The position numbers were made by a program, and so were the translations under genes. Shown here piece after piece: positions 1 through 18,130 of a DNA stretch of 64,000 nt (position 1 is its first letter; each line of letters begins with the position of its first letter). The stretch spans positions 20,517-84,516 of the IMG/VR virus record IMGVR_UViG_2711768098_000003; one strand, written 5' to 3'. Source of the stretch: a virus (Duplodnaviria > Caudoviricetes). Below the pieces are notes generated by a model. That model was not told the origin of the DNA. It made no database searches and worked only from the letters and a program-made list of their open reading frames with translations.

Positions 1-817
1 GGCGCATCGCCAACTGCACTTCACGCAGTGGGACGCCAGCGTCGATCGCATTGACGCAGAAACTGTGCCGGAACGTGTGCGGTGACACGTTCATTTGAAT
101 GCCGGTTTTGCGGACGATGCGTTTCGCGACGCGGTCGGCGGAGTGGCGGGTCATGCGTGTGCCGTCGCGGCGTAGCAGTAGAGCACCGGTTTTGCGGTCG
201 CCGATTGCACGGTCGATAGCGCGCATGACGACGGGTGGCTGCGGTGCAACTGCGATCTCGCCGCCCTTCTGCACGAACTGCATGATGCGGTGGCCTTGCG
301 AGTAGGACGTCACGTTTTCGACGTCCAGGCTGCACGCCTCCGACACGCGTAGCCCGGTGTAGCCCATGATGACCAGCAGCGCGTAGTCGGTTGCCGAGGA
401 TTCGTAGGCTTGATGGCAGACGGCCTGCATCTCGTTGCGGTCGAGGTGGATCTTCTCCCCTACGACTTGCCGGATCTTCGGCATTTTGAGGAGTCTCGCC
501 GGGTTTTTGGTGATGCAGTCGTCGTCGAGTGCGATCTCGTAGAACAGTCGGAGTGTGCCGATACGGTGCGAGATGGTGGATGGGCTGTTGCGGCGCTCGT
601 CGGCGAGGTAACGCATGTACACCTCGATGTGTTGGCGACGGGCGTCGAACACGTGGAGTCCGTGTCCGTCGCACCACCGCCGATACATCTTGAGGTCGTC
701 GCGGTATGAGATTTGGGTGTTGCCGTCCCATCGCATGAGGAATGCTTCGCAGAACAGGTCGAGGGAGAGTGCGTCTCGTCCGGTGTGCGGGATGGTGATG
801 TCCAGTGCTGCGGTCAC
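1..817 (-). CDS. XerC/D-like tyrosine recombinase, 3'-truncated by the window edge
   Basis: Not in the ORF track; translated by hand from GTG at 817: MTAALDITIP...YRDDLK...NPARLL...GYTGLRVSEA...QKGG...SPHTFRHSF...AGVPLREVQLAMR. Catalytic R, K and HxxR motifs are present. Confidence 0.92.
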   Translation of the reverse strand, partial: MTAALDITIPHTGRDALSLDLFCEAFLMRWDGNTQISYRDDLKMYRRWCDGHGLHVFDARRQHIEVYMRYLADERRNSPSTISHRIGTLRLFYEIALDDDCITKNPARLLKMPKIRQVVGEKIHLDRNEMQAVCHQAYESSATDYALLVIMGYTGLRVSEACSLDVENVTSYSQGHRIMQFVQKGGEIAVAPQPPVVMRAIDRAIGDRKTGALLLRRDGTRMTRHSADRVAKRIVRKTGIQMNVSPHTFRHSFCVNAIDAGVPLREVQLAMR

Positions 818-866
818 GGTTGGAGAAGCTAGCAGCGTTTGCGTGTTGGCTTCCTAGTCAAATCTC

Positions 867-949
867 AGATACCCACTTGGTGTTATGTGCCGCTTCGATC
901 GCCTGACAGAAACGTGACAATCGCCTGTTAACTGTCACGTTCTCTGTCA
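867..949. promoter_or_regulatory. Candidate recombination/regulatory site upstream of the left recombinase
   Basis: Imperfect dyad AGATACC-N8-GTTATGT at 867-888, plus inverted repeat TGACAGAAACGTGACA (904-919) / TGTCACGTTCTCTGTCA (933-949). Confidence 0.4.
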
Positions 950-959
950 TGCTGACCGG

Positions 960-1172
960 ATGCTCTACTGGATTCTCGGCGGTGTCGCCGTTTGGGTCGT
1001 CATCGCCGTGATCGCGGTGTACTGGCTTGGGCGGACCATCTCGCACACCGACCTCGAAGAATCCGCCGCCGAGCTTCGACGAGCCGAGCGAACCGACCAG
1101 GCGCACGGTGCTACGCGGCCACTACGACCTTCAGATCATCGAGCACAAGGGAGTCGGAAGACGCTGAGTTGA
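960..1172 (+). CDS. Small single-pass membrane protein
   Basis: Strongly hydrophobic N-terminus (LYWILGGVAVWVVIAVIAVYWL). The 3' end overlaps the convergent gene by about 60 nt. Confidence 0.5.
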   Translation: MLYWILGGVAVWVVIAVIAVYWLGRTISHTDLEESAAELRRAERTDQAHGATRPLRPSDHRAQGSRKTLS

Positions 1173-4100
1173 ATCCCGCGATTCCGACGAGTGCGCCAGT
1201 GAGCACGTCGGTGTCTGTGGCGGAGTAGACAACGGTCCCGTTCTTCAGCAGTTGCAGCGCAGACCCAACCACCCGCACACCTACCGTGTCGCCGTCCGCC
1301 AACGGGAAAGACGATCCCGAGAAGGTCGTGGTCGTGGACCCGACCCGCTTGCGTAGATCGAACGCAGCCGACCCGATCCGAAGGCGGATGGAGGTGGAGT
1401 TCCCGGCCTGCCGCCTGACATCGAGGTACACCGACGTTCCAGTCGAAGCGGGGCGGGTGACGACCTTGACCGATGCTTCGACGTCCGAAGACGGCATCGG
1501 CGCTGTGGCGGACGGGGCCTCCCCTGCCACCAGTGACAGCGTGAGCGCACCGTTGACGGTGTATCGACCGAGAGGCGTGGCCGTCCACGAGGCCGCGGTG
1601 CCGCCTGCGTTCGAGTCCGTCGATCGACCGTTGAGTTCTCCCGTACCGGAGAATCCATCACTGAGCACCGTGGTGCCTATGGCCGGATTGCCGAGCACGT
1701 CGACCCATCCGAGTTCGAGCAGCTTCGCACCGACGAGCTTGGCGACTGCGTTGTACCCGGTGTACGACAGGTGCGCATCGTCGTCCGCCAACGACGGGGG
1801 CATGACGCCGTTGGCCTGAGCGGCGAGGTCCGCGGACGTGGGTGTGATACCGGTGTCGGTCCACACCTTCGATCCGGTGATGTACGCGCCGACGTCGAGG
1901 TACTTGTCCCCGTACGTCTGCCGGTACACCTCGTTCACGCGGGCAGTCTGCGCGACACGATCGGCTGCCCAGTTCTGATTGCAGAAGTGACCCAGGACCA
2001 GCCGGCGTTTGGCGAAAGCGCCGACCTGCTTCCAATGCTTCGCGGTGTAGTCGACGACCCTCTTCTCCTCCTCGGCGCTGAGCGTTCCGAGGTTGTTCTT
2101 ACCGACCCACAGCAGGGCCGCATTGTCGCGGCGAGTGACTCCGACCGACGAGAGGAACGGAGCCGGTGCTGCGACCGCGACAGCGCTCCCCGACGTCGTG
2201 CGGGTGAAGGTGTACCCCGGCGTCGGGGTGGCGGTGTACGCCAGGGTTCCCGCGATACCTGCCAGGGTGCCGTCGATGGTGACGGTGGAGTACACCGGAA
2301 AACTGTTGGCGATGGTGACCGCTACCGACCCCGACGCGGGAATCGATCCACCGACCGGCTGCACGAGAACGGGAACCGCGTTGGCCTTGGCTGCCGAGTG
2401 TTGGATCTCCTCGCCGCCGATGCCCTGCGAGTAGACCGGGATGCCGAGTACCGACTGCAGTGCACCCTGAGACACGAGACGCTGAGCGCTCGACGAACCC
2501 CACACCGCGACACCAGGGGCAGGTTGCACCGGCGAGACGTACCCAGTCGTGAGGTCGATGCACAGCCATGTCCCGGCCGTGTTGTGAAACAGCGCGAAAT
2601 CGCCGATGACTGCGGGGGTGTCGGTGATGTCGAGGCCGGTGGCGATCTGCTTTTCCGCTGCACCGTTGGCGAAGTTGGTCGCGTAGAGGGTCGACCCGTC
2701 CCGCCTGACGATGAAACGGTTGGCATCGACGGGCACTGCGGGGGTCTGCCATGCGACACCGGTGCCGGTCTTGGCGAGTACCTGCCCAGTCGCACCGCCC
2801 GCGGGAGTCGTCAGCTTCGAGTCGACGTCGATCGGCCCGGACATGATCTCGGAGGACGTCGCGACTGCGATTCCCTTCGACGCGATGTAGTCGATGAGAG
2901 CCGTGAAGTCGGCGACGGACCAGGAGTTGACACTGCCGGTGCTGTCGAGGGTGTGGAAGACGAGGTTGATCCAGCACTTTTCGGTGGTCGCGGAGTCGAC
3001 GAGTGCTTTCGCCGAGGCGAGGTCACGGCTACTTCCCAACGCGGCCGCGGGTACCGCCCAGCGTGCAGCGGCAGGTAGCTGCGAGTGTCGTCCGTCGTTG
3101 GTGCGGGCGAATCCGTAGTACTGCGAGACCAGGCGTTGCAACGGTGCGTCGAAGTTGCCTACCGGGTAGGCGAACGCGGACGACTCCACGCCGAGGCTGC
3201 GCTGCCACTGCCGCAACTGCGTGAGCATCGTACGGACCTCGGCCTCGGGTATGCCGACTCGGGACGCGTGTTCACCGGCTGTCATGCAGTGTCCGCCGAC
3301 GTCCCATCCGTGAGCGTCATGGAGCGTGCGCACCTGCGCCTCGGTGAGGTAACTCGGACCCGATCCCACACGTGAGACCACCGGGTACAGGGTGGCGCGG
3401 TAGCCGTACTTTCCGAGAACCTGGCGGGCGACCGTCCACGCTTCGATGTAACTGTCGTCGAAGTCGATGCTGACCACGCCGTTCGGGAATCGTGAGTCCC
3501 CCTCGACGTAGGTCGCGACCCCGCCCAGCTTGAGTCCGACTGTATTGCCGGATCCGATGTCTCGGACGCTCACCTGGGCGGTGGTCAGACCGACGCGGAG
3601 GGGCGCTCCTGAGCTGACGGAGAAGTTCGCCCAGGGGATGATGAGCGGTACCCACTCGTTCTCGCGGAGGGACGACTTGCCGCCCGAGGGTACCGAGACG
3701 GTCGCGCGCCACGAATCGGTCATGGCCGACGTCGTCGCGAGGTAGACGTCGAAGGTCGACAGGTTTTGCATGTTGACGGCTTTGACCCAGAGCACGAGGC
3801 CGCGGCCGTTCATGTCCAGGTTCAGGCTGACGTTCTTCAATCCAGCGGTGGCCCCGTCTCCGAGGGTGACCGTGGAGATGCAGCGAGTTCCGATTGCGAA
3901 GTCTGTGGTGTCCGATGGTGTGGGGGTCTGCGCGCCCACTCCGCCCCAGCCGTGGGCTGCGGCCTGGAACGGACTGATGATGGTGGTGCGCGGCCAGAAG
4001 CGGGGCGAAGGCGCGGGTGGGGAGACGATCGAAGTCGACGCATAACGGGTATTACTGAGTTCACGTTCCTGATCGAGGATCACGTTCAACTCAGCAACGT

Positions 4101-4203
4101 CAACCGCATCCTCAATACCCGCCTCAATACGATTGAGCTCCTCCGCAGTAATCGGAGTCGACGTATCAGGCTTGTTCTTCCATAGCTTTCGAATGAATGC
4201 CAA
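1111..4203 (-). CDS. Multidomain virion-associated protein: polysaccharide deacetylase (NodB/CE4) + SGNH-like esterase + C-terminal beta-sandwich
   Basis: Phage-type N-terminus (WKNKPDTSTPITAEELNRIEAGI); CE4 motifs DFDDSY, GGH...H, FAYPVG, LVFH; SGNH-like WGSSS, GKNN, DDAH. Confidence 0.75.
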   Translation of the reverse strand: MAFIRKLWKNKPDTSTPITAEELNRIEAGIEDAVDVAELNVILDQERELSNTRYASTSIVSPPAPSPRFWPRTTIISPFQAAAHGWGGVGAQTPTPSDTTDFAIGTRCISTVTLGDGATAGLKNVSLNLDMNGRGLVLWVKAVNMQNLSTFDVYLATTSAMTDSWRATVSVPSGGKSSLRENEWVPLIIPWANFSVSSGAPLRVGLTTAQVSVRDIGSGNTVGLKLGGVATYVEGDSRFPNGVVSIDFDDSYIEAWTVARQVLGKYGYRATLYPVVSRVGSGPSYLTEAQVRTLHDAHGWDVGGHCMTAGEHASRVGIPEAEVRTMLTQLRQWQRSLGVESSAFAYPVGNFDAPLQRLVSQYYGFARTNDGRHSQLPAAARWAVPAAALGSSRDLASAKALVDSATTEKCWINLVFHTLDSTGSVNSWSVADFTALIDYIASKGIAVATSSEIMSGPIDVDSKLTTPAGGATGQVLAKTGTGVAWQTPAVPVDANRFIVRRDGSTLYATNFANGAAEKQIATGLDITDTPAVIGDFALFHNTAGTWLCIDLTTGYVSPVQPAPGVAVWGSSSAQRLVSQGALQSVLGIPVYSQGIGGEEIQHSAAKANAVPVLVQPVGGSIPASGSVAVTIANSFPVYSTVTIDGTLAGIAGTLAYTATPTPGYTFTRTTSGSAVAVAAPAPFLSSVGVTRRDNAALLWVGKNNLGTLSAEEEKRVVDYTAKHWKQVGAFAKRRLVLGHFCNQNWAADRVAQTARVNEVYRQTYGDKYLDVGAYITGSKVWTDTGITPTSADLAAQANGVMPPSLADDDAHLSYTGYNAVAKLVGAKLLELGWVDVLGNPAIGTTVLSDGFSGTGELNGRSTDSNAGGTAASWTATPLGRYTVNGALTLSLVAGEAPSATAPMPSSDVEASVKVVTRPASTGTSVYLDVRRQAGNSTSIRLRIGSAAFDLRKRVGSTTTTFSGSSFPLADGDTVGVRVVGSALQLLKNGTVVYSATDTDVLTGALVGIAGFNSASSDSLVLDDLKVVVAA

Positions 4204-4290
4204 AACGATGTCCTATCAATAAGATCGAGTGGCAGCTATGGGCTGCCCCACGCCTAACCCACGCTGCAACTACTACGGGTAGACGTCGGA

Positions 4291-4315
4291 GCCGGGGAGA
4301 ACGCTGCTCCCCGGC
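4291..4315 (-). terminator. GC-rich hairpin downstream of the major tail gene
   Basis: GCCGGGGAG / CTCCCCGGC 9-bp stem about 10 nt after the stop codon. Confidence 0.5.
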
Positions 4316-4325
4316 ACCAAGGGCA

Positions 4326-4991
4326 TTAAGGGGTTGCAAGCTCGAAACCGAACTTTTCGATCTTGTTCTTCCAACCCAGACCACCGAAGCCATGACCGAC
4401 CGCGAAACCAGCCGTGTCATCCTTGAACGCAGTCAACGTCAACTTCTGGCCGAGCGACGTCGACGGAGTCCAGTTCTCGCCATCGAAGTTCGACACAGCG
4501 ACCTTCGGCAAAACCTTGAACACGTAGATCGGCTCCTCATCGGAACCGTCCTGGCCGATGACGATCGCACTGTAGTAGCGGATGCTCGGCGCGGTCGGCT
4601 GCGCGAAAAACACTTCACCGGACTCGGCGTCGCCCTTCACCGCATCCAAATCAGCGGCAGTCGTCAACTCGAGAACCAGCTTGTTGGTTTCCTGCGGCGT
4701 GAACGCGAACGTCGTCGAATCCGCGGTGATGTCCATGCGAGTCGGCTGCATCTCACCGTACGACTCCAGGTTCGACGTTTCCGTCGACCGGGCGAACGCG
4801 ATACCGTCAGCCTTCGCGAAATGCCCGACCGGAACATACGCGGCCGGCAACGTCTGCAACGCCGAATTCGAGGACGTGAACGCAGTCGGATGCGGCGTGT
4901 AATGCGGGGCCAGCCAAATGCCCGCGTCGAGCGGCTTCAGCAGGACTTCAGACTTGGCTGCCTTCAACAGAGACAGGGAGGTGTCCACCAT
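4326..4991 (-). CDS. Major tail protein
   Basis: 221 aa; GHFAKADGI...ESYG...PTRMDIT...FTPQET...LTLTAFKD pattern typical of actinophage tail tube proteins; follows the neck genes. Confidence 0.85.
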   Translation of the reverse strand: MVDTSLSLLKAAKSEVLLKPLDAGIWLAPHYTPHPTAFTSSNSALQTLPAAYVPVGHFAKADGIAFARSTETSNLESYGEMQPTRMDITADSTTFAFTPQETNKLVLELTTAADLDAVKGDAESGEVFFAQPTAPSIRYYSAIVIGQDGSDEEPIYVFKVLPKVAVSNFDGENWTPSTSLGQKLTLTAFKDDTAGFAVGHGFGGLGWKNKIEKFGFELATP

Positions 4992-8044: not shown

Positions 8045-8812
8045 TTACTTGCGTCCGCGGCCGCGTCGTTCGCGGCGGGACTTGATGAGCTCGTCGATCG
8101 ACGAGTCGTCGCCGAGTGGCTTGCTAGCTCCGTTACCTGCGGACAGGTCGGCGCCGGATCGTCCGGCGGCGGGGCGGGGCTGTTCCTTACGGAACTTCGG
8201 GTTTGCCTGCAGCGCAGCGGAGACCGCGGCGTCGACTTGTGCCGTGTAGTCGGCGGCGGAATGGTCGAGGGCTGCGAGAGTCTTCGACAGTTCCTTCGAG
8301 TCGGAGAGACTGTTGAAGTCGCCGTCGTTCGCTACTGCGGCGTCACGGAGTGCGTTGTGCTCGGTGAGTTCGCGGAGGCGGCGGGCGGTTTCGGTTTCCC
8401 GTTGGGCGACGGCATCACGGTCAGCGGTGAGCTGGGCGATGATGTCTTCAGGCTTGGGTGCTTCGTCGTTGTCTTTGATGAGGCCGAGTTCGCGGCCCCA
8501 CTTTTCGACGAGGCCCTGCTGTGTTTCGGCGGCAGCTTTTTCAGCGGCTTCCTTCGCAGCTTTTTCGGCCTTCTCGTTGCCTTTGACCCGTGCGGCAGCG
8601 TTTTCGCGGCGTAGCTTTTCGATTTCCTTGCGGAGGATCGCGGGGTCGTCGATGGGTTCGCTGGCGGCTGCGGCGTCCGGTTCTACCGTTGCGGCATCGT
8701 CTGCGGCGGGTTCGACTGCGGGTTCCGGTTCCACCGTCACTGCGGGTTCGACGGCTGGTGTGGCCGCCGTTTCCGGGGTGATGTCGGTGGGGGTGACTGT
8801 GCTGTCAGACAT
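8045..8812 (-). CDS. Capsid scaffolding protein
   Basis: Acidic P/A/T-rich N-terminus, coiled coil IEKLRRENAAARVK, RSGADL C-terminus; likely start MSDST at 8812. Confidence 0.8.
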   Translation of the reverse strand: MSDSTVTPTDITPETAATPAVEPAVTVEPEPAVEPAADDAATVEPDAAAASEPIDDPAILRKEIEKLRRENAAARVKGNEKAEKAAKEAAEKAAAETQQGLVEKWGRELGLIKDNDEAPKPEDIIAQLTADRDAVAQRETETARRLRELTEHNALRDAAVANDGDFNSLSDSKELSKTLAALDHSAADYTAQVDAAVSAALQANPKFRKEQPRPAAGRSGADLSAGNGASKPLGDDSSIDELIKSRRERRGRGRK

Positions 8813-8977
8813 GTGGTGTTGCCCTTCTGCCGCGCCTGGCGGACATGAAGAAGCCCCCGGCCACTTGTGGGTGTTCGGGGGCTGCGGAAATTTGTGTGGG
8901 AGCCCTGCGTCAGGCAGGGTTTGGTGCACCGCTGCTACGGCGGCTCCAGGCCGTGTAGTGCGGAAATTTGTGGGGTG

Positions 8978-11299
8978 TTATCGGGCGGTGTTCGCTTGTT
9001 CGCGGCGTCTCGCGCGCGGCACGGTGGGGTGTGCGGCGACGTGTTCGCGGATGCGTGCTTGGAGTGCGCGGGTGCGGGCGTTCGCTTTCGTTTTCGCGGC
9101 CGGGGTGAGTGCTGCGGCGTGGCGGCGTTTGCTGGCGCGGACTTGCCGTTCCAGGTAGCGGAGTTGCTGCGACGCTTTGTAGTCGGCGGGGTCGACTGAG
9201 GGGGCGTGAGGTAAATCATCCCCAGGCGTCCATATCGACAGGCTATGCCTGCAGTTATGGGTGATAATGGAATTGGCTATATACCAACCCTCCCCTGACT
9301 CAAGGTTGTAGACGTGACCCGAATAGTTCTGCCGCTCGACACTGACGATCTTGTCGCTCGATATCAGGCCGGGGAGAGCGCTAAAACTCTCTCCGAGATC
9401 TGCAAATGCAGCCCCGGCGCCATCTACCAACGACTCCGCAAAGCCGGTGTGCTGCGCTCTGTTTCGGATGCTGCGCAGGAACGCGCCAGCCGAGCCGCTG
9501 GGCCCGAGTGGCTGCCCGATGCTGTCCGGCTCTACAAGTCCGGGAAGTCTCAGATTGATATCGAACGCGAACTCGGCATCAAGCAATCCCTTATCAGTGC
9601 CGCTTTCAAGCGGCACGGAATAACCGTGCGGCCCGCCGACGAGAGAAACAGGATGAGATGGGCTAAGGAGACTCCCGAGGGCCGGGCTTTTCTGGTCGAA
9701 TCTGCCCATAATGCCGTCCGTGGAATGGTCCGCACCGAGGCTGACTTGGCTAAACGCGCCGAGGGAAAGCAGCGCACCAAGGCGCACGCCACCGATGAAG
9801 AGACTGCCATCCTGGATGCTCTCGCCGAACGAGGAGTCGAGGGCATCGCCCAGAAGGCTGTCGGCCGTTACAACATCGACATCGCCTGTGGACCCGTCGC
9901 CGTGGAACTGTGCGGCGGCGGCTGGCACGGTCATGGGCGGCACCTCAGCCGACTGCCGCAGCGCGTCAAATACATCGCCGATGCGGGCTTCAATCAGATC
10001 TACATTTGGGCCCTTGCTGGCAGTCGAGACCTTAACGTCTCCGCTGTGGCGGATGACATCGCCGCCTACCATGAGTTCTCCTGCAGCCACCCATCCGCTC
10101 GACGTCAATATCGGGTGGTTTGGGGTAGCAGTGAGTTTGTTTCCGCTGGTTGTGTTGATGACGACTACCTCGCCGTCATACCAGCGCCGATCCGCGGCCT
10201 TAACGCCACTAGGTACTGACACTGGAGTATCGCCAGGAAAGCAGTTGGGGTGGTGCAATCCCCGGGCGCGCGCTTTCGCCACCGACGTGACCACACGGCC
10301 ACGCCACGGCTCAGTACCGCCATACGACGTCGTCGCACCCGTCACCGACAACAGATTCCCTTGAAACGGGGCGCACAAGTTCGAACAGTTCGGGTGAATC
10401 GACACCTTCACCAAGTCGTAGCCGTAACTGGCAATCAACGTGATGTGCGCGTCGATCGCGGCCTGCGCTGTCGCAGTGCGCGTCGCCATCTCCATGTAGC
10501 TCGTCATCGACCAGTTGCGTCCGCGGGAGTCGACGAAACCGGTGATGCCGCGTTCGGCGTACCGGTCGATCAACTTTTGTGCGAGGCGAAGCCGGTCGGC
10601 TTCACTGGAGAGCGGGTTGGCGAGGACTTCGGCCATCACTTGCTGGTACATGCCTTCGGCTGCGGCGACCATGTGCGGCGCCATCGACTCCAACTGCGGC
10701 AAGAGTGGGTTTGGTGGGCGGACGGTGACGCCTCGCGGGGTTTGCGGTGCGATTGGGGCGGTGGCGCGGAGGTCGTCGAGTGTCATGTCGGCGGGTGCAT
10801 CGGGTGCGCGGTGCCGGGGTTCTCGTGCGCGATGCCTACCGTTCGTAGGGGGTGCGTCGAGGTCGACGGGCGGCAGGGTTGATGCTGTTCGGCCACTGCG
10901 GCTACCCGGCGACGCTATTTCGGATGTATTCGGCGAACCATTCCGATCGGGCTGTGACCTGCCGCGACCTTTAGGGGATGTATCTGCGGCTCCACGGGTG
11001 CGGCGCAGCGACTCCGACGCGGTATCCACACCGACATCGGCGGCATCATCCATCGCGGCATCCGCTGCGGCACGCGTACGACGCAACATGCCACCGACAT
11101 ACGTGCGAACCCGTTTACGGAACGCCGCCAACCGTGTGAACTTCCCTGCCGCCGCACCCGTGATCTCAGCGAACACAGCGCCCGCAACGATGCCGATCAA
11201 AGCGAGCTCGCCCGCCGACACTTCCTCGACGACAGGATCCTCGAGGCCCTCAGTGTCATCCGACGAGACCGGTACAGCATCCTCCTCGGATGACATCAA
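8978..11299 (-). CDS. Minor capsid/head maturation protein (MuF / phage minor capsid family) containing an intein
   Basis: GITGFVDSRGRNWSMTSYMEMATRT, CAPFQG and QQLRYLERQVR motifs. The conserved HPNCRH motif is split by a Hint-domain insertion. Confidence 0.9.
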   Translation of the reverse strand: MMSSEEDAVPVSSDDTEGLEDPVVEEVSAGELALIGIVAGAVFAEITGAAAGKFTRLAAFRKRVRTYVGGMLRRTRAAADAAMDDAADVGVDTASESLRRTRGAADTSPKGRGRSQPDRNGSPNTSEIASPGSRSGRTASTLPPVDLDAPPTNGRHRAREPRHRAPDAPADMTLDDLRATAPIAPQTPRGVTVRPPNPLLPQLESMAPHMVAAAEGMYQQVMAEVLANPLSSEADRLRLAQKLIDRYAERGITGFVDSRGRNWSMTSYMEMATRTATAQAAIDAHITLIASYGYDLVKVSIHPNCSNLCAPFQGNLLSVTGATTSYGGTEPWRGRVVTSVAKARARGLHHPNCFPGDTPVSVPSGVKAADRRWYDGEVVVINTTSGNKLTATPNHPILTSSGWVAAGELMVGGDVIRHSGDVKVSTASKGPNVDLIEARIGDVFDALRQSAEVPPMTVPAAAAQFHGDGSTGDVDVVTADSLLGDALDSSFGESIQDGSLFIGGVRLGALLSLGAFSQVSLGADHSTDGIMGRFDQKSPALGSLLSPSHPVSLVGGPHGYSVPLESGTDKGLLDAEFAFDINLRLPGLVEPDSIGQPLGPSGSAGAFLRSIRNRAQHTGFAESLVDGAGAAFADLGESFSALPGLISSDKIVSVERQNYSGHVYNLESGEGWYIANSIITHNCRHSLSIWTPGDDLPHAPSVDPADYKASQQLRYLERQVRASKRRHAAALTPAAKTKANARTRALQARIREHVAAHPTVPRARRREQANTAR
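9254..10243 (-). mobile_element. Intein (330 aa, residues 353-682 of the ORF)
   Basis: Block A CFPGDTPV, block B LTATPNHPILT (TxxH), block F HVYNLES, block G IITHN followed by +1 Cys. Removing it restores LHHPN-CRHSL. Confidence 0.93.
9314..10219 (+). CDS. Antisense-encoded putative homing endonuclease (two HTH-like repeats + Vsr/DUF559-like nuclease) nested within the intein
   Basis: LVARYQAGESAKTLSEICKCSPGAIYQRLRKAGV and AVRLYKSGKSQIDIERELGIKQSLISAAFKRHGI are HTH-like. EETAILDAL..GV....QKAVGRYNIDIA...VAVELCGGGWH matches the DUF559/Vsr pattern. GTG start with AAGG 8 nt upstream. Confidence 0.82.
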   Translation: MTRIVLPLDTDDLVARYQAGESAKTLSEICKCSPGAIYQRLRKAGVLRSVSDAAQERASRAAGPEWLPDAVRLYKSGKSQIDIERELGIKQSLISAAFKRHGITVRPADERNRMRWAKETPEGRAFLVESAHNAVRGMVRTEADLAKRAEGKQRTKAHATDEETAILDALAERGVEGIAQKAVGRYNIDIACGPVAVELCGGGWHGHGRHLSRLPQRVKYIADAGFNQIYIWALAGSRDLNVSAVADDIAAYHEFSCSHPSARRQYRVVWGSSEFVSAGCVDDDYLAVIPAPIRGLNATRY

Positions 11300-11314: not shown

Positions 11315-12883
11315 TTAGGCGGCCGTCTCGAACTCGGTGTCGTCAGTGCCCCCGAAGTCGCCGCCGGAAGAGAACGAGTTTTCGTCCTTCATCTCCTGCT
11401 TGATGCGGGCCACTTCATCGTCCTGTTCATCCGTCGACCAGTTCGGGTTGCGCTCCTTCACGGCCTGTTCGATAGACATGGCGTTCGCAGTCCGCAACGT
11501 GGCGATAGACGCCGACAGTTCGGCAGGCGACTGCGTCGAGCGAGTCGGGAACTTCAACTCAGGGAGCTCCGACAATGCGATGCCAGTGCCGAACAGTTCG
11601 GCATCGATGTCCATCGCAGTCTTCGCGAGCGGCCGCAACCCGGCCTTCCAATAGTTGATTTTCTTGTCGCGGGTGCGTTCGGACAGCTTGTCTTTTGAGT
11701 TCACTTCGGTGGCGGTGGGAACGCCCACGGTGAGGCTCGAGTCGGAGAAGTTGTTCGACGACAGGCCGGCGCCACGCAGGATCGCGTTGAGTATTTCCGC
11801 GCACGTCTGCGAATGCTCTTGCCAGCGGATCGCGAACTGGTTTGCTTGCACCGATGATGCGGCGCCACCGGATGCGTCACCGAGCTGCTCGCGCAGCGGC
11901 GTGAAGATCGCCTGGTCGGAGTCGAACATGCCGCCCTTGCCGGGGCCACTGTTGATGAGGAGGCCTTCGTCGACGAACAAACGTGCTTTGCCGAGGTCCA
12001 GGTCACGCATCCACGACGTGTATGCCTCATCCAATGCGTCGAACAGTTGCTCGAGGCCGTCGAAGTCGGAGCGCCCCAACTGGGTGAGACCTGGTTTGGT
12101 GCGCCACCGCCGGTTCGGGCGGACGTTCGGCACATACGATGCCGTTAACTCGTCGACACCGGTCAGGATGGCGCCGTCCTGGTCGACTGCATTCGCGGCC
12201 CATTCGGTGGCATCAACCTCGGTTAACGGCACCTTCCGGCCCAGATGGCCTTGGTCGCCTTGGTAGAGGCCGTGGATGATCCGTCCGGATTCGTGACGCT
12301 CCAAATGGCGTAGCACGATACCGTTGTCATCCAGCACGGTTGTCCAGAACGTGACTGCTGTCAGATGGTTGTACGTCCACGTTGGGATCGCGGCATCCGC
12401 GGCGACCGCGCCGATCATCACATGGTCGGCGATACGGTCATCCCACCACAAACGGTTGTAGGTGCCGCCGAGCGCCGAACAGATTTCCGCGGACTCCAGG
12501 AATGTGGAGGCAGCCTCATCTGAGTTGAACATCAAGTCGAGGCGCTTAGTTGCAGCATCACCTGCAGCGGTGTCGTCTTCGGCGATCGCGAACTTCGGTG
12601 GCTGCGAAAACAGGAGGTCTGCGCTCGACCGGGCGAGGTCAGCGGCGGCGGGGATGTGCAGTTTCGACGATGACTGCAGGTTGGGGCGGCCCCAAAAGAA
12701 TTTGGCGAGGCGGCCCATGATGCCGCCGGGCATGACGGTTTGCCGCATCATGTTATTGCTGGCGTAGATGGTTTCGAGGTCTGCGGGGCTGCCGGTGTAC
12801 CAGGCGTTCCATGTTTTGAAGTCTTTTTGTGCTTCGTCGAATGGTTTGGGCGGGAATTGGCCCCCGGCATCTGGTAGCGCCAC
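11315..12883 (-). CDS. Portal protein (SPP1 gp6/A118-like)
   Basis: 522 aa; YVPNVRP, LGRSDF, LDEAYTSWMRDLDLGKARL and QFAIR motifs; lies between terminase and minor capsid. Confidence 0.9.
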   Translation of the reverse strand: MALPDAGGQFPPKPFDEAQKDFKTWNAWYTGSPADLETIYASNNMMRQTVMPGGIMGRLAKFFWGRPNLQSSSKLHIPAAADLARSSADLLFSQPPKFAIAEDDTAAGDAATKRLDLMFNSDEAASTFLESAEICSALGGTYNRLWWDDRIADHVMIGAVAADAAIPTWTYNHLTAVTFWTTVLDDNGIVLRHLERHESGRIIHGLYQGDQGHLGRKVPLTEVDATEWAANAVDQDGAILTGVDELTASYVPNVRPNRRWRTKPGLTQLGRSDFDGLEQLFDALDEAYTSWMRDLDLGKARLFVDEGLLINSGPGKGGMFDSDQAIFTPLREQLGDASGGAASSVQANQFAIRWQEHSQTCAEILNAILRGAGLSSNNFSDSSLTVGVPTATEVNSKDKLSERTRDKKINYWKAGLRPLAKTAMDIDAELFGTGIALSELPELKFPTRSTQSPAELSASIATLRTANAMSIEQAVKERNPNWSTDEQDDEVARIKQEMKDENSFSSGGDFGGTDDTEFETAA

Positions 12884-15427: not shown

Positions 15428-15444
15428 CGGGGCCTCCTTTCGCT

Positions 15445-16070
15445 TGGGGATAGGCGCTCCTGGCGTCCTTGTCCGCTGCGTTCAGGGGGTGCCGTTTCTG
15501 GGGCATGTGTTGCTGGTCCGCACTGGCCGACTGTTTCCGCGTGTTGTGCTCGTGTGTGGGGTGTGTGGGAGCTTGTTGCGGTGTTGGTTGGTGTGGTGCG
15601 GGGGTTTGGGCGCCCCGACTCGACCGGCGGGCTTCGCGACGGGTAGCGGCGTCGGCCTTGGGGCTCGGGAGTCGGGGCGATTTGTTGCGGCAGGCTGATC
15701 CGGCGGTTGTCGTGTGTGAGTGTCCGGTGGCGTGCCGCTGCTTTGGGTTGAGGCTTTTGTCGACGCAGTGCCTCACGATCGCGTCTGCGGTGCTCCCGGT
15801 TTCTGGTCCGGGTCTTTTCAGTTGATGCCTGCACGGGGCAAGTTGTGGCCCTATGTCGGGGGCTGGCCGGTGCGCCTTGGTCGTACGCCACGGACAGGCG
15901 CGGCAACCCCGCAGTTCCTGTGCGCTCACATGCCGAGAGCCCGCAGCTAAACCCACAGCCCTAACTGGATGCGGGGAAAGCGTTCACGTCCCAGCTTGCC
16001 CGTCGAGTGCTCGAGTTCGGCGGGCCTACTACTACGCGACGTCGATGTCCGGTCAAGGTGAAAGACGTCG
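15445..16070 (-). ncRNA. Candidate structured non-coding RNA / long late-operon leader
   Basis: About 630 nt with no credible ORF; stems GCGACGTC/GACGTCGC, GCCCG/CGGGC and CGCCCCGACTC/GAGTCGGGGCG; directly downstream of a tRNA-like gene. Confidence 0.35.
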
Positions 16071-16071
16071 C

Positions 16072-16144
16072 TGGCTGACCCGCCACGAATCGAACGTGGG
16101 TCTCCCATGCCTAGGATGCTCTATGCCAGTTGAGCTACGGGTCA
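16072..16144 (-). ncRNA. tRNA-like RNA with a truncated anticodon arm (or tRNA pseudogene)
   Basis: TGACCCG-TA-GCTC-AACTGGCATA-GAGC-A-TCCTA-GGCA-TGGGA-GAC-CCACG-TTCGATT-CGTGG-CGGGTCA-G-CCA: intact acceptor, D and T arms and CCA, but only a 4-nt anticodon loop. Confidence 0.75.
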
Positions 16145-16175
16145 AGACTGGATATCCGCGTCCAGTCAGCGCGAG

Positions 16176-16694
16176 CTACTTGCGGCGCCGCGGCCGCGCA
16201 AACGGATCCGTGTCCGTCCGATACGCCTTATCGCGCATGTTCGCCTGCGTCTGCGCATTGATACGAGCCGCCATGCCCTTATTCGACGGCGAACCAGCGC
16301 CGTTCAGCTTCTCGTTCAGGCGACGCGTCTTCTCGGCGCGGGCACTACGCTCAGCAGCCCGCTTCTCATTCCAGGAGTCCACGGTGGCTGCCGTCGTCTT
16401 CCGGTCGGCAGCGATCTCCGCCGCCGTTTTATCCGACTTGACGGGGCCACGCTTCGGGGCAGGCTGGACGCCGAACTTCTTTTGCGCTGCGAGATGCTGT
16501 TTCGACCCGGTGCCGTACATGGCTTCAGCAGCCTTAGTCTTGTCGGCGCCGGACATGCTGCGGGAGTCCCGCCCGTTCAAACCGGAAGGCTTCGAAGGGG
16601 CTTTCCGGTTTGTACTTTTCTTCCCGGATGCGTTGCGGGCTTTCAGCGCGGCACTGATCTTCGCCTTATGCTCGGCGGACAGTGGCCTACCCAT
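16176..16694 (-). CDS. Basic protein with N-terminal NUMOD3-like motif
   Basis: MGRPLSAEHKAKISAALKAR; very K/R/A-rich. Confidence 0.7.
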   Translation of the reverse strand: MGRPLSAEHKAKISAALKARNASGKKSTNRKAPSKPSGLNGRDSRSMSGADKTKAAEAMYGTGSKQHLAAQKKFGVQPAPKRGPVKSDKTAAEIAADRKTTAATVDSWNEKRAAERSARAEKTRRLNEKLNGAGSPSNKGMAARINAQTQANMRDKAYRTDTDPFARPRRRK

Positions 16695-17116
16695 CAGCGG
16701 CCTGTATTCCGTGCCGCACGCGCCGCGCGACGAGTCCGCGTATTCGCTGCACGACCCTCACGAGCCCAGTCAGTCGTCGCATCATCCTTACTTGCCGCAG
16801 CATGCTTCGCGACGAACCGGTAGCGGGAGTTGCTGGTGCCGTCCTTGCGCTGCTCCAGTTTGCCCATCTCGCCGCGGGCGCGACGGTCAGACTTGATTTT
16901 GTCGATGCTGCGGCGCGTTGCCGCGATACCGTCAGCTTCACTCGATTTCGGCTTTGCAGTCGATCCGGGTGCGCCCTTGATTGTGGATGCGGCAAGAGCT
17001 CCGGGTCTGCGGGCAGGCGCGTCCGGCTTGGCCTTGCTGGACTTGTTCGCGGCGTTGCGTTTCTTCAGTGCCGCCGAGATCTTCGCTTTGTGTTCAGCGG
17101 AGAGTGGTTTACCCAT
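16694..17116 (-). CDS. Basic protein with N-terminal NUMOD3-like motif
   Basis: MGKPLSAEHKAKISAALKKR; TGATG-coupled on both sides. Confidence 0.7.
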   Translation of the reverse strand: MGKPLSAEHKAKISAALKKRNAANKSSKAKPDAPARRPGALAASTIKGAPGSTAKPKSSEADGIAATRRSIDKIKSDRRARGEMGKLEQRKDGTSNSRYRFVAKHAAASKDDATTDWAREGRAANTRTRRAARAARNTGR

Positions 17117-17313
17117 CAGCGGCCTGCTTTCTTCGGTGCAGCCTTCGGTGCGGCAGCTTTCTTCGGGGCTGCCTTCTTGCCTGCGATCTTCGCGGCCAGG
17201 AACGGCGGCAGATCAGACTTGCCACCCGCCGGCTTCTTACCCGCAGCAGCCTTCTTCGCAGCAGCATTCTTCGCGAACGCTGGGGGCATGACGCCCTTCT
17301 TCGGTGCAGCCAT
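17116..17313 (-). CDS. Small histone H1-like (AKK/PKK-rich) basic protein
   Basis: MAAPKKG...AAAKKAAAGKK...KKAAPKKAAAPKAAPKKAGR; GGAG RBS before ATG 17313. Confidence 0.7.
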   Translation of the reverse strand: MAAPKKGVMPPAFAKNAAAKKAAAGKKPAGGKSDLPPFLAAKIAGKKAAPKKAAAPKAAPKKAGR

Positions 17314-17341
17314 CAGCAGCACTCCAATCATGTCGATTCGA

Positions 17342-18130
17342 TCAAGTGGCGGCGTTCTGGTAGATGCGATCAAACGCCGCATGGATGTCGCTTCTAACGT
17401 CTTCGTCGAGACCTGAACCGGGGAGACCCCCGCGAATGTTCAGACCTGCCCTCAACGCATCGTTCAGTAGGTATCCGTCAGATTCATCGTCGCCCAGTGA
17501 CTCGTAGCCGAGGGTGTCCCGCAGCTCTTCCATGTCAGCCATGGTCTGCACAAGGTCGCGGTTCGACAGGTTCCCTTTGACGATTGGCGGGCCGGTGACG
17601 AAGTTGTCGGCTGGCGGCCGCGTCTGGACTCGACGGTTGGCGTCGAGTATTTTCCAGAGGTCGGAGCCCATGTCAGCCCATTCGTCGTCGGTGATTTCGT
17701 AGTTGCCGCCGTCGAGGCCGCGGGAGAAGAAATCGACGTTGAGGCCGGATTGGATGACTGCGGTTTCAACGGCGGCCAGGTCGAAGTCGTTGATCGTCGC
17801 GCCGCCGGAAATTTTGCTTTGGCCGCTCCATTCGGAGTTTTCGGCGTCAAGCCACCGTTTGATGCCTCCGTAAACTTTCTTGGCGGTTTTCGGTGTGACT
17901 GAGTCGATGTCGGTTCCGCGGTATTTGGTGGTGTGTCCGCGAAATCGGGACTCGATGGGTTTGGTTGCGGGGAGTTCGTGTTGCCGGAACCCGGAGAGTC
18001 CTGCGTGTGTGGATGGTGTTGCGGCGCCGCGTCGGCTTCGGGGTTCGTCGGCGTGTCCGAGTCCGGCATAGAATGCGCGGAGGCCTTCGGAGATGTTTTC
18101 GCGATGCTCGGGGGTGAGGTGTCGAGTCAT
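17342..18130 (-). CDS. Hypothetical protein with NUMOD3-like N-terminus and acidic C-terminal part
   Basis: MTRHLTPEHRENISEGLRA; AGGAG RBS. Confidence 0.65.
   Translation of the reverse strand: MTRHLTPEHRENISEGLRAFYAGLGHADEPRSRRGAATPSTHAGLSGFRQHELPATKPIESRFRGHTTKYRGTDIDSVTPKTAKKVYGGIKRWLDAENSEWSGQSKISGGATINDFDLAAVETAVIQSGLNVDFFSRGLDGGNYEITDDEWADMGSDLWKILDANRRVQTRPPADNFVTGPPIVKGNLSNRDLVQTMADMEELRDTLGYESLGDDESDGYLLNDALRAGLNIRGGLPGSGLDEDVRSDIHAAFDRIYQNAAT

What the first reader, a model, noticed from the sequence alone, without database searches (positions are those of the whole stretch)
9254..10243. Intein whose putative homing endonuclease is encoded on the antisense strand as a fully nested overlapping gene
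Seen in the sequence: the minor capsid gene carries a canonical class-1 intein (C1 at 10243, TxxH, HN/C at 9254) inserted in the conserved HPNCRH motif. Its roughly 220-aa interior is open but looks like filler (G/S/L/D/A-rich, no convincing LAGLIDADG or HNH). On the opposite strand a 301-aa ORF (9314-10219) fills 906 of the 990 intein bases, starting 60 nt inside one splice junction and stopping 24 nt inside the other. It is in exact codon register with the intein and overlaps splicing block B. It encodes two HTH-like repeats and a Vsr/DUF559-like nuclease motif (E..IL..L...G....Q..VGRYNIDIA...VAVELCGGGWH). Established: inteins normally carry their homing endonuclease in frame, and Vsr-like/EDxHD nucleases with N-terminal DNA-binding repeats are known as homing endonucleases of phage introns and split-intein loci. 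Inference: this is a two-strand selfish element in which the sense strand splices itself out of the virion protein and the antisense strand supplies mobility. That would uncouple nuclease expression from late structural-gene expression. I do not know of this architecture being described. Caveats: in-register antisense ORFs are common at high GC, and the usual E-x-D-G reads E-L-C-G here, so activity is uncertain.
Basis: partly seen in the sequence, partly recalled or inferred. Interest (0 to 1): 0.95.

Follow-up and report, generated by a model that had tools for sequence, protein, structure and literature searches.

The report
Intein with antisense Vsr-like homing endonuclease
A self-splicing insert (intein) in a phage head gene carries its DNA-cutting mobility enzyme as a separate, conserved gene on the opposite strand; this looks real and widespread, but a 2025 preprint already described the layout.

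Summary
The MuF gene (8978-11299, minus) carries a 330-aa class-1 intein (9254-10243). A 301-aa ORF (9314-10219, plus) lies inside it in exact codon register.

The antisense ORF looks like a real gene:
- In 98 of 99 loci examined, at GC 0.38-0.73 and from several bacterial phyla, a homolog is nested the same way.
- Inside the intein, substitutions shift from sense codon position 3 to sense position 1, which is the antisense wobble position.
- The sense interior (intein residues 133-285) is predicted disordered.
- The start codon, the Shine-Dalgarno site and, in a subset, a -10 box are complements of intein block F/G codons. Synonymous-codon choice at these positions is strongly biased.

The three closest extein relatives lack the intein. 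One relative is a free-standing gene beside an intein-less MuF.

The novelty claim fails. Gosselin, Arsenault and Gogarten (bioRxiv 2025) report anti-sense VSR-like endonucleases in actinophage minor-capsid inteins. This scan also noted the layout before on other DNA (e1-3440232). I did not find the breadth beyond actinophages or the embedded expression signals in that preprint's main text. Cleavage, homing and expression are untested.

The parts
8978..11299 (-). MuF-like minor capsid / head morphogenesis gene (773 aa precursor including the intein)
   Evidence: ORF. Pfam Phage_min_cap2 2e-35, 122.8 bits against a cut-off of 26.3. PHROG 581 minor head protein 6.9e-56. It lies between the portal-like ORF 11315..12883 and the scaffold/capsid ORFs, all on the minus strand.
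10244..11299 (-). N-extein, ending ...HHPN
   Evidence: The closest relative L085 is 72% identical over the last 163 aa and continues HPN-CKH with no intein.
9254..10243 (-). Class-1 intein, 330 aa (C1 ... H329-N330, followed by C+1)
   Evidence: In the alignment of 50 inteins (A4), N42, H43, T47, G50 and N330 are invariant and C1 is conserved in at least 90%.
9854..10243 (-). Intein N-terminal HINT lobe (residues 1-130), with block B T40-x-x-H43 at 10115-10126
   Evidence: AlphaFold2 with 50 sequences: pLDDT is at or above 87 for residues 1-70 and 60-86 for residues 81-130.
9389..9847 (-). Intein interior in the sense frame (residues 133-285): an open but structureless linker
   Evidence: pLDDT is below 50 across residues 133-285. 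There is no Pfam match. Sense codon position 1 is more variable than position 3.
9254..9376 (-). Intein C-terminal HINT lobe (residues 290-330, blocks F and G)
   Evidence: pLDDT 89-97. The motif GHVYNL...SIITHN is.
8978..9253 (-). C-extein (CRHSLSIW...) with stop codon
   Evidence: It aligns with the C-terminus of the intein-less MuF in L085.
9314..10219 (+). Antisense nested gene: 301-aa tandem-HTH plus Vsr-like (EDxHD-type) putative homing endonuclease
   Evidence: ORF. tblastn hits 124 phage records, E down to 5e-33. 196 IMG/VR loci encode a relative. Selection acts on this frame. Mean pLDDT 91.3.
9341..9442 (+). HTH module 1 (residues 10-43)
   Evidence: Helices 10-18, 23-30 and 34-43. 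The profile matches the tandem-HTH protein 2lvs at 1.3e-9 over profile positions 9-101. HTH_7 is matched by 38 of 54 family members.
9512..9613 (+). HTH module 2 (residues 67-100)
   Evidence: Helices 67-75, 80-87 and 91-100. Pfam HTH_28 matches residues 70-95.
9782..10153 (+). Vsr-like nuclease core (residues 157-280). Codons of E163 at 9800-9802, D189 at 9878-9880, E198 at 9905-9907, H205 at 9926-9928, D223 at 9980-9982
9314..9316 (+). GTG start codon, the complement of the His310 codon of intein block F (GHVYNL)
   Evidence: At the homologous place, 45 of 54 relatives carrying the motif have ATG (39) or GTG (6). The His codon there is CAT in 45 of 52, against 346 of 807 elsewhere.
9302..9305 (+). 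Weak Shine-Dalgarno-like AAGG, 8 nt before the GTG, the complement of the Asn-Leu codons of block F
   Evidence: At the same place 45 of 54 relatives have GGAG or GAGG. The Leu codon there is CTC in 41 of 47, against 838 of 3151 elsewhere.
9263..9268 (+). -10-like GATAAT (5 of 6), the complement of the Ile-Ile codons of block G; candidate promoter element, weak in this window
   Evidence: The consensus promoter scan found 0 sites in the window. At the same place 15 of 50 unique relatives read a perfect TATAAT and 13 of 50 have TGn plus at least 5 of 6.

Best explanation
This is a composite selfish element read on both strands.

Minus strand. The late MuF mRNA is translated through a 330-aa class-1 intein. 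Its two HINT lobes (residues 1-130 and 290-330) are joined by a structureless linker of about 150 aa. The linker only has to stay free of stop codons. Protein splicing then restores HPN-CRH in the mature head protein.

Plus strand. The same DNA encodes a separate 301-aa protein with two helix-turn-helix DNA-binding modules, a helical linker and a Vsr-like (EDxHD-type) nuclease core. Its start codon and ribosome-binding site are complements of intein block F codons. In many relatives a -10 promoter box is the complement of block G codons.

Proposed function. The nuclease most likely cuts intein-less MuF alleles near the conserved HPN/C codons. Recombinational repair from the intein-bearing allele then copies intein and nuclease gene together (homing), and the intein makes the insertion harmless to the phage.

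What is shown and what is inferred. Shown by computation: the gene is real and under purifying selection, it has the fold and the conserved acidic and His residues, the expression-signal codons are biased, and the distribution is sporadic. Inferred: transcription, translation, cleavage specificity, homing and splicing.
For: 1. Conservation of the layout.
- tblastn with the antisense protein hits 124 phage records: Salmonella 63, Pseudomonas 15, Gordonia 14, Klebsiella 8, Escherichia 6 and others.
- The three records I opened all have the match antisense to an annotated MuF gene, with open frames of 280, 269 and 316 aa.
- 196 IMG/VR stretches encode a relative and 80 were kept. In 83 of 84 loci (the window, 3 phage records and 80 IMG/VR loci) the homolog is nested in register in a long minus ORF, at GC 0.38-0.73.
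- 15 of 15 bacterial genome loci show the same: Firmicutes, Sumerlaeota, Actinobacteria, Acidobacteria, Bacteroidales, Anaerolineae, Gammaproteobacteria and Pirellulaceae.

2. Selection on the antisense frame.
- In an alignment built on the sense proteins (74 ORFs, 25 pairs at 60-98.5% nt identity), exteins and intein ends vary most at sense position 3. Window residues about 400-640 (stop-to-stop numbering) vary most at sense position 1, which is antisense position 3.
- In pairs above 95% nt identity, differences per antisense position 1/2/3 are 0.009/0.007/0.039. Amino-acid identity is higher in the antisense frame in every divergence bin.
- The antisense query scores higher than the sense intein against the same phage: Fosterous 134 bits against 103 bits.

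3. Fold.
- Antisense model: pLDDT 91.3 with 54 sequences.
- Sense model: pLDDT 62.7 with 50 sequences, and residues 133-285 below 50.
- PDB profile search: 2lvs 1.3e-9, 3hrl 2.9e-4, 3r3p 3e-3.
- Pfam MTES_1575 in 47 of 54 members and HTH_7 in 38 of 54.

4. Active site. E163, D189 and E198 are invariant or nearly so, H205 is present in 43 of 54, and the window has all of them. The spacing resembles E170, D196 and H213 of I-Bth0305I (PMC3239194, section 17 read).

5. Expression signals. See: His CAT Fisher p 4e-10, Leu CTC p 9e-18, and the Ile-Ile codon pair ATT-ATA in 15 of 22 against 8 of 80 elsewhere, p 1e-7.

6. Mobility.
- The closest extein relatives lack the intein: L085 at 72%, and PSonyx at 45% and VanLee at 44%, whose MuF genes of 372 and 346 aa have no room for it.
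- The best intein-bearing extein is only 41% identical. 56 of 73 intein-bearing exteins are not detected at all by the window's N-extein.
- A free-standing homolog sits convergent to an intein-less MuF that ends ...HPNCRCCLTFKVD.
Against: - There is no expression evidence; no RNA run was listed.
- The window's own signals are the weak versions: a GTG start, AAGG instead of GGAGG, and GATAAT without TGn. The consensus promoter scan found nothing.
- The window's Pfam matches are below the curated cut-offs.
- H205, the presumed general base, is absent in 11 of 54 members, among them the Snoke-like and Fosterous-like lineages. Some lineages may therefore not be active nucleases even though the frame is still conserved.
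- My residue equivalences with Vsr and I-Bth0305I rest on spacing and fold match, not on a residue-level superposition.
- Pairs used in the substitution and codon-bias tests are phylogenetically non-independent, so the p-values overstate significance.
- No cleavage site is known.
- The preprint notes that some VSR-like intein groups look vertically inherited.
Confidence: 0.8

Rival explanations
1. The antisense ORF is a chance open frame of the kind common in GC-rich DNA, and its similarity across phages merely mirrors conservation of the sense intein.
For: In this window alone the chance of such an open run is about 0.03. Other long antisense ORFs exist over the exteins. Part of the antisense C-terminus (QYRVVWG) is simply the complement of intein block B (arithmetic).
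Against: - The frame is open in 98 of 99 loci, down to 38% GC.
- The wobble pattern flips to the antisense frame inside the intein, even in a sense-built alignment.
- The antisense frame scores higher than the sense frame.
- The antisense protein folds at pLDDT 91 into a known nuclease fold, while the sense interior is disordered.
- Independent Pfam and PDB profile matches exist.
Confidence: 0.02
2. The antisense gene is real, but its product is not, or is no longer, the intein's homing enzyme. It could be a domesticated DNA-binding regulator. It could also be a nuclease used in phage-phage competition or marker exclusion that uses the intein only as a safe landing place.
For: - The presumed catalytic His (H205) is missing in 11 of 54 members, yet those lineages still show purifying selection.
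- The tandem HTH region is the best-scoring part of the profile.
- The preprint reports that some VSR-like intein groups look vertically inherited (section 15 read).
Against: - D189 and E198 are invariant and E163 is present in 53 of 54.
- The architecture equals that of the proven homing endonuclease I-Bth0305I: two HTH/NUMOD repeats plus a Vsr-like domain (PMC3239194).
- The intein is sporadic among close exteins.
- A free-standing copy sits right at the MuF HPNC site.
Confidence: 0.1
3. The family is a working homing element, but the copy in this provirus is a poorly expressed or decaying relic.
For: It has a GTG start, an AAGG in place of GGAGG and a GATAAT without TGn, where most relatives have ATG and GGAG(G) and 15 of 50 have TATAAT. 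The record is classed as a provirus.
Against: The ORF is full length and keeps every conserved active-site residue. GTG starts and weak -10 boxes are ordinary in GC-rich actinobacterial hosts (my own knowledge, not tested). The nearest relatives L004 and L006, at 69-72% GC, also lack a perfect -10.
Confidence: 0.08

Closest known systems
[quoted passage not shown]
   Same: - A full intein whose homing endonuclease is a VSR-like protein encoded on the antisense strand.
- Minor capsid proteins are among the hosts; the paper says minor-capsid inteins carry only non-canonical HENs.
- The sense interior has no recognisable structure.
   Different: - Their survey is limited to PhagesDB actinophages. 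The family here extends to Salmonella, Escherichia, Pseudomonas, Klebsiella and Vibrio phages and to prophages of at least eight bacterial groups.
- Their main text has no hit for promoter, express, ribosom, start codon, synonymous or Salmonella.
[quoted passage not shown] Here about 100 codons of the nuclease core lie opposite the structured N-terminal HINT lobe.
- Their supplements were not visible to me.
I-Bth0305I and the EDxHD family of homing endonucleases (Taylor et al. 2011, PMC3239194; I read passages and section 17)
   Different: I-Bth0305I is encoded in the sense orientation inside a group I intron of a phage recA gene. Here the gene is antisense inside an intein and shares its codons with it. 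No activity is known here. The extra invariant E198 corresponds only loosely to the acidic residue the paper places at Vsr Phe62.
Fractured genes: split inteins with free-standing Vsr-like or GIY-YIG endonuclease genes between the halves (Dassa et al. 2009, PMC2677866; I read the abstract and passages)
   Same: A Vsr-like endonuclease gene is associated with an intein at the position between the N- and C-terminal splicing parts. The nuclease is a separate gene, not a domain of the intein.
   Different: There the host gene and intein are broken in two and the nuclease is on the same strand, overlapping the downstream gene by 6-69 bp. Here the intein stays contiguous and the nuclease is fully nested on the opposite strand.
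Anti-sense LAGLIDADG inteins (Synechocystis dnaX, Chloroflexus SpoVR-like; Gorbalenya 1998 and Gogarten et al. 2002, as cited in the preprint; I did not read these papers)
   Same: The homing endonuclease is encoded antisense inside a contiguous intein.
   Different: The nuclease family is different (LAGLIDADG rather than Vsr-like) and the hosts are cellular.
Canonical bifunctional inteins such as PI-SceI (background in PMC8966425, passages read)
   Same: A HINT splicing domain plus a homing nuclease occupy the same DNA insert and move as one unit.
   Different: In the canonical type the nuclease is an in-frame domain of the intein polypeptide, made in step with the host protein. Here it is a separate polypeptide from the other strand with its own start signals.

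Membership tests
Class-1 intein | Cys/Ser at position 1, block B TxxH, C-terminal His-Asn, and Cys/Ser/Thr at +1 | tested here: met
   C1, T40-P-N-H43, H329-N330 and C+1 can be read. They are conserved across 50 inteins.
Class-1 intein | HINT fold / Pfam Intein_splicing | tested here: inconclusive
   PF14890 scores E 1.8e-8 at 34.7 bits, just under the 35.8-bit cut-off. AlphaFold2 gives confident beta-rich lobes at residues 1-70 and 290-330. I ran no fold search on the sense model.
Class-1 intein | Protein splicing activity | not testable with these tools
   Inferred only, from the motifs and from the need for a working MuF.
MuF-like minor capsid protein (Pfam Phage_min_cap2) | Profile match above the curated cut-off | tested here: met
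   2e-35, 122.8 bits against a cut-off of 26.3. PHROG 581 at 6.9e-56.
Vsr-like / EDxHD homing endonucleases | Vsr-like nuclease fold | tested here: met
Vsr-like / EDxHD homing endonucleases | Composite active-site residues (Glu, Mg-binding Asp, His general base, second Asp) | tested here: inconclusive
   The window has E163, D189, E198, H205 and D223. Family conservation is 53/54, 54/54, 54/54, 43/54 and 30 D + 18 N of 54. Equivalence with I-Bth0305I E170/D196/H213/D222 is inferred from spacing, not from a residue-level superposition.
Vsr-like / EDxHD homing endonucleases | N-terminal tandem HTH/NUMOD DNA-binding repeats | tested here: met
   Two three-helix modules at residues 10-43 and 67-100. 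Tandem-HTH protein 2lvs at 1.3e-9. HTH_7 in 38 of 54 members.
Vsr-like / EDxHD homing endonucleases | Site-specific cleavage of the element-free allele, and homing | not testable with these tools
   Only indirect support: intein-less closest relatives and a free-standing copy at the MuF HPNC site.
Pfam REase_MTES_1575 (PF18741) | Profile match above the curated cut-off | tested here: not met
   The window's protein scores 20.9 bits against a cut-off of 38.2. 47 of 54 relatives match at E <= 0.01, best 5.8e-9. This is a distant relative, not a member by Pfam's threshold.
Anti-sense VSR-like HEN inteins (2025 preprint) | Contiguous intein; VSR-like ORF on the antisense strand within it; sense interior without recognisable structure | tested here: met
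   Gordonia phages from PhagesDB (Fosterous, Affeca, Angelicage, Vivi2, Malisha) are among the homologs.

The most novel reading that the evidence does not exclude
The intein and its backwards nuclease gene may be one old, inseparable unit spread across phages of many bacterial phyla.
- The nuclease's start codon, ribosome-binding site and, in many lineages, an extended -10 promoter are written into the codons of intein splicing blocks F and G.
- About 100 codons encode two folded domains at once: the nuclease catalytic core on one strand and the N-terminal HINT lobe on the other.

Under this reading neither partner can easily be lost or replaced without harming the other. That would differ from the preprint's picture of a rare, possibly transient, invasion of an intein by a free-standing endonuclease in actinophages.
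Probability: 0.55. Interest if true: 0.6.

Novelty: new member of a known kind. Interest (0 to 1): 0.4.

Why it matters
- Annotation. Annotation pipelines miss this gene. In the three phage records I opened, only the MuF gene is annotated over it. More than 100 deposited phage genomes, including Salmonella and E. coli phages, therefore probably carry an unannotated nuclease gene.
- Overlapping coding. This is a clean natural case of long sense/antisense double coding in which one can see which strand selection reads at each codon.
- Link between selfish elements. A free-standing relative sits next to an intein-less target, so the family ties free-standing endonucleases, split inteins and full inteins together. 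This bears on how inteins acquire their mobility genes.
- Practical use. The family offers a new set of candidate site-specific nucleases with modular HTH recognition.

Tried and rejected
- blastn (distant mode) of the 990-nt intein against the phage collection found nothing.
- GC by codon position within the window did not discriminate the frames, so I dropped it in favour of comparative substitution patterns.
- The -35/-10 consensus promoter scan found 0 sites in window 8800-10600. In Snoke it found none at the relevant place, because that scan demands a -35. I then looked directly for -10 and extended -10 boxes at the homologous position. A first regex mis-placed the intein end in several loci, the window included, and was corrected.
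- RNA evidence: no RNA holder was listed.
- Literature searches 'intein + homing endonuclease + opposite strand', 'intein + antisense + overlapping gene + endonuclease', 'intein + MuF + phage + endonuclease' and 'intein + complementary strand + open reading frame + homing' turned up no description of this layout. 'intein + actinobacteriophage' found the preprint. 'intein + anti-sense + homing endonuclease' found it again and nothing else relevant.
They may list the same Gordonia phages or details I call unreported.
- I considered a phylogenetic incongruence test of intein against extein but did not run it. Most exteins are too diverged to align.
- Not used: the search of protein representatives, complex prediction, the protein-atlas search, the listing of cluster members, the look-up of encoding contigs.


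Full report
OBSERVATION

The window holds a 773-aa minus-strand ORF (8978..11299) that reads ...GLHHPN|CFPGDTPV ... SIITHN|CRHSLS. It also holds a 301-aa plus-strand ORF (9314..10219, GTG start). The intein spans 990 nt, which is 330 codons in frame.

From the coordinates, the plus ORF starts 60 nt inside the C-terminal junction and stops 24 nt inside the N-terminal junction. Because 10243-9314+1 = 930 = 3x310, the two frames are in exact codon register. Intein residue i lies opposite antisense residue 311-i. Block B (T40-x-x-H43) therefore lies opposite antisense residues 268-271.

Pfam calls the sense protein Phage_min_cap2 (2e-35) plus Intein_splicing (1.8e-8, just under its cut-off) and finds nothing on the interior. 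The antisense protein gets sub-threshold HTH_28 and REase MTES_1575 matches. PHROGs agrees on a minor head protein. The record is an 84.5-kb IMG/VR provirus with one copy of the ORF.

IS IT MORE THAN CHANCE?

In this window alone the case is only weak. Sense codons that would be antisense stops (TTA, CTA, TCA) make up 5 of 448 extein codons, so an open run of 306 codons has P of about 0.03. The comparative evidence decides the matter.

- tblastn with the antisense protein hits 124 phage records at E down to 5e-33: Salmonella 63, Pseudomonas 15, Gordonia 14, Klebsiella 8, Escherichia 6, Vibrio 3, Acinetobacter 3 and others.
- In the three records I opened (Gordonia phages Fosterous and Malisha, Escherichia phage Snoke) the match is antisense to the annotated MuF or capsid-morphogenesis gene. 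The frame is open for 280, 316 and 269 aa.
- A scan of IMG/VR found 196 stretches encoding a relative, of which 80 were kept.
- Across the window, the 3 phage records and the 80 IMG/VR loci, 83 of 84 have the homolog nested in register inside a long minus-strand ORF, at locus GC from 0.38 to 0.73. At 38-47% GC the chance of such an open run is 1e-2 to 2e-8 per locus.
- A scan of one genome per prokaryote species added 15 loci, all 15 nested in register. They come from Firmicutes, Sumerlaeota, Microbacterium, Mycobacterium, Salinibacterium, Acidobacteria, Bacteroidales, Anaerolineae, Gammaproteobacteria and Pirellulaceae.
- The protein database holds only 37 called homologs, mostly on contigs of 1-2 kb, some carrying PF18741, PF04480 and HTH domains. 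This fits a gene that callers usually miss.

WHICH STRAND DOES SELECTION READ?

I aligned 74 unique MuF ORFs by their sense translation, which biases towards the sense frame if at all, and threaded the codons. I then counted differences per codon position in the 25 pairs with 60-98.5% nucleotide identity.

- In the exteins and at both ends of the intein, sense position 3 varies most, for example 0.18/0.15/0.37.
- Between window residues about 400 and 640 (stop-to-stop numbering; the intein's first Cys at 357, its last Asn at 686), sense position 1 varies most, for example 0.20/0.02/0.08 and 0.30/0.12/0.15. Sense position 1 is the antisense wobble position.
- Around residues 380-420 the two positions are equal and both low, as expected where both frames are constrained.

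In an antisense-built alignment of 71 unique sequences, the 15 pairs above 95% identity differ by 0.009/0.007/0.039 at antisense positions 1/2/3. Amino-acid identity is higher in the antisense frame in every bin: 0.984 against 0.957, 0.668 against 0.534, and 0.400 against 0.313.

The sense intein as query scores lower than the antisense protein against the same genomes. Fosterous gives 103 against 134 bits. For many of the Salmonella and Escherichia phage records listed, the sense hit covers only intein residues 1-181/187. The pairs are not phylogenetically independent, so I treat these results as patterns, not probabilities.

WHAT THE TWO FRAMES ENCODE

With an alignment of 54 antisense proteins (A3), AlphaFold2 gives mean pLDDT 91.3. 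The model has two three-helix modules (residues 10-43 and 67-100), a helical linker and an alpha/beta core at residues 161-280.

With an equally deep alignment of 50 sense inteins (A4), the model has mean pLDDT 62.7. It is confident at residues 1-70 and 290-330, intermediate at 81-130, and below 50 for residues 133-285.

- Foldseek ranked the same chains with probability 1.00 but E-values above 1e-3.
- A profile of A3 finds the tandem-HTH protein 2lvs (1.3e-9), 3hrl (2.9e-4) and 3r3p (3e-3) among PDB sequences.
- 47 of 54 members match Pfam MTES_1575 and 38 of 54 match HTH_7 at E <= 0.01.
- In A3, D189 and E198 are invariant, E163 is present in 53 of 54, H205 in 43 of 54, and D223 is D in 30 and N in 18. 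The window's protein has all of them.

Their spacing resembles E170, D196, H213 and D222 of I-Bth0305I, the residues that paper equates with Vsr E25, D51, H69 and D97 (PMC3239194, section 17). I did not make a residue-level superposition.

Since the nuclease core (antisense residues 181-280) lies opposite intein residues 31-130, roughly 100 codons appear to encode parts of two folded domains.

EXPRESSION SIGNALS

A companion first-reader note (e1-6222248) suggested a promoter and ribosome-binding site inside the block F/G codons. I tested this across the family.

- Start codon. In 45 of 54 unique loci with the G-x-V-Y/F motif, the antisense codon opposite the block-F His is a start codon (ATG 39, GTG 6). 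The His codon there is CAT in 45 of 52 loci, against 346 of 807 His codons elsewhere in the same ORFs (Fisher p 4e-10).
- Shine-Dalgarno site. 45 of 54 have GGAG or GAGG 5-16 nt upstream, formed by the complement of the Leu-Gln codons. The Leu codon there is CTC in 41 of 47, against 838 of 3151 elsewhere (p 9e-18). In loci below 55% GC it is CTC in 13 of 15.
- -10 box. At block G, 15 of 50 unique loci read a perfect TATAAT on the plus strand, and 13 of 50 have TGn plus at least 5 of 6 matches. Among loci with Ile-Ile there, the codon pair is ATT-ATA in 15 of 22, against 8 of 80 Ile-Ile pairs elsewhere (p 1e-7). Snoke reads TGcTATAAT about 45 nt before its ATG.

The window has the weaker versions: GATAAT at 9263-9268, AAGG at 9302-9305 and GTG at 9314. 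The consensus scan finds no promoter. No RNA run was listed, so expression itself remains untested.

MOBILITY

- The closest relative of the window's N-extein is provirus L085, at 72% over 163 aa with the same portal-MuF-scaffold-capsid order. It has a 434-aa MuF reading ...NHPNCKHWVTLW..., with no intein.
- The next best are Corynebacterium phage PSonyx (45%) and Gordonia phage VanLee (44%). Their MuF genes of 372 and 346 aa have no room for an intein.
- The best intein-bearing extein is only 41% identical. The window's N-extein fails to detect 56 of 73 intein-bearing MuF proteins at E <= 1e-3, although their nucleases match at E <= 1e-30.
- The single non-nested locus, L027, has a 328-aa homolog as a free-standing gene. 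It is convergent with an intein-less MuF that ends ...SRHPNCRCCLTFKVD, and overlaps it by 14 nt. Its ORF contains 17 TTA/CTA/TCA codons in 328, so the MuF-sense frame across it is closed. Nested copies have none of these codons over the overlap.

This fits an origin from a free-standing endonuclease that targets the MuF HPNC region, as the preprint proposes in general terms. The recoding need is also modest. An earlier scan check (e1-1915598) notes that a filter on arrival can suffice to explain an open opposite frame.

WHAT IS KNOWN

Gosselin, Arsenault and Gogarten (bioRxiv 10.1101/2025.01.02.630785, version of 20 Oct 2025; I read the abstract, sections 8, 15 and 28, and passages) surveyed PhagesDB.

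[quoted passage not shown] Minor capsid proteins are among the four host protein types.
- They state that inteins in minor capsid proteins were exclusively of the non-canonical kind.
- They cite Gorbalenya 1998 and Gogarten et al. 2002 for earlier anti-sense LAGLIDADG inteins (not read by me). They cite Dassa et al. 2009 for Vsr-like endonucleases in split-intein loci (PMC2677866, passages read).

This scan has also reported the same layout on other DNA: e1-3440232 for a phage head gene and e1-3444396 for a TerL intein with an antisense HNH.

Some things I could not find in the preprint's main text. Term searches for promoter, express, ribosom, start codon, Shine, synonymous and Salmonella returned nothing relevant. 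Apparently missing are:
- the spread of this one family far beyond actinophages;
- the codon-position evidence;
- the expression signals embedded in splicing-motif codons;
- the overlap with the structured HINT lobe. [quoted passage not shown]

My other literature searches found no further description.

VERDICT

The case is a new member of a known, recently described kind. I score interest as moderate (0.4). The headline novelty is gone, but the breadth, the hard-wired expression signals and the free-standing relative are worth a specialist's attention, and culturable phages offer direct tests.

Noticed in passing
L027:2875-3861 (+) and L027:3848-4354 (-): The only non-nested relative among 99 loci. 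It is a free-standing 328-aa homolog, convergent with an intein-less MuF gene that ends ...HPNCRCCLTFKVD and overlapping it by 14 nt. Its ORF has 17 TTA/CTA/TCA codons, so the opposite frame is closed.
   Followed up: partly
L002:2552-3304 (+) (Escherichia phage Snoke) and relatives L066, L068, L073; also L001 (Fosterous): These lineages lack the presumed general-base His: they read WA or AQY where the window has W-H205. Even so, the Snoke group shows the clearest purifying selection on the antisense frame, with differences of 0.014-0.024 / 0.004-0.027 / 0.059-0.105 at antisense positions 1/2/3. They are either active by another residue or kept for DNA binding.
   Followed up: partly
L002:2498-2506 (+): Snoke reads a perfect extended -10 (TGcTATAAT), which is the complement of the Ile-Ile-Ala codons of intein block G. 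It lies about 45 nt before the antisense ATG, which is preceded by GAGG.
   Followed up: yes
phage records (for example PV446483.1 Salmonella phage PK2): A few deposited annotations list 'hypothetical protein' features under the antisense match next to 'head morphogenesis protein', so some annotators did call an ORF there. ZCSE7 labels the MuF gene as an NAD+--asparagine ADP-ribosyltransferase.
   Followed up: no
window 10700-11000 (-), MuF residues about 100-200: The N-terminal part of the window's MuF has an Arg/Pro/Ala/Ser-rich stretch that does not align with relatives (rows marked 'few'). L085 has a comparable stretch.
   Followed up: no
window 1-4991, 15444-18130 and upstream of the window: Other first-reader notes on this provirus were listed by the findings index but not examined here: a tRNA-like element with a GNRA loop, an ORF-free stem-rich region, a NUMOD3-like tagged gene cluster, and a Xer-like recombinase island in the tail module.
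   Followed up: no
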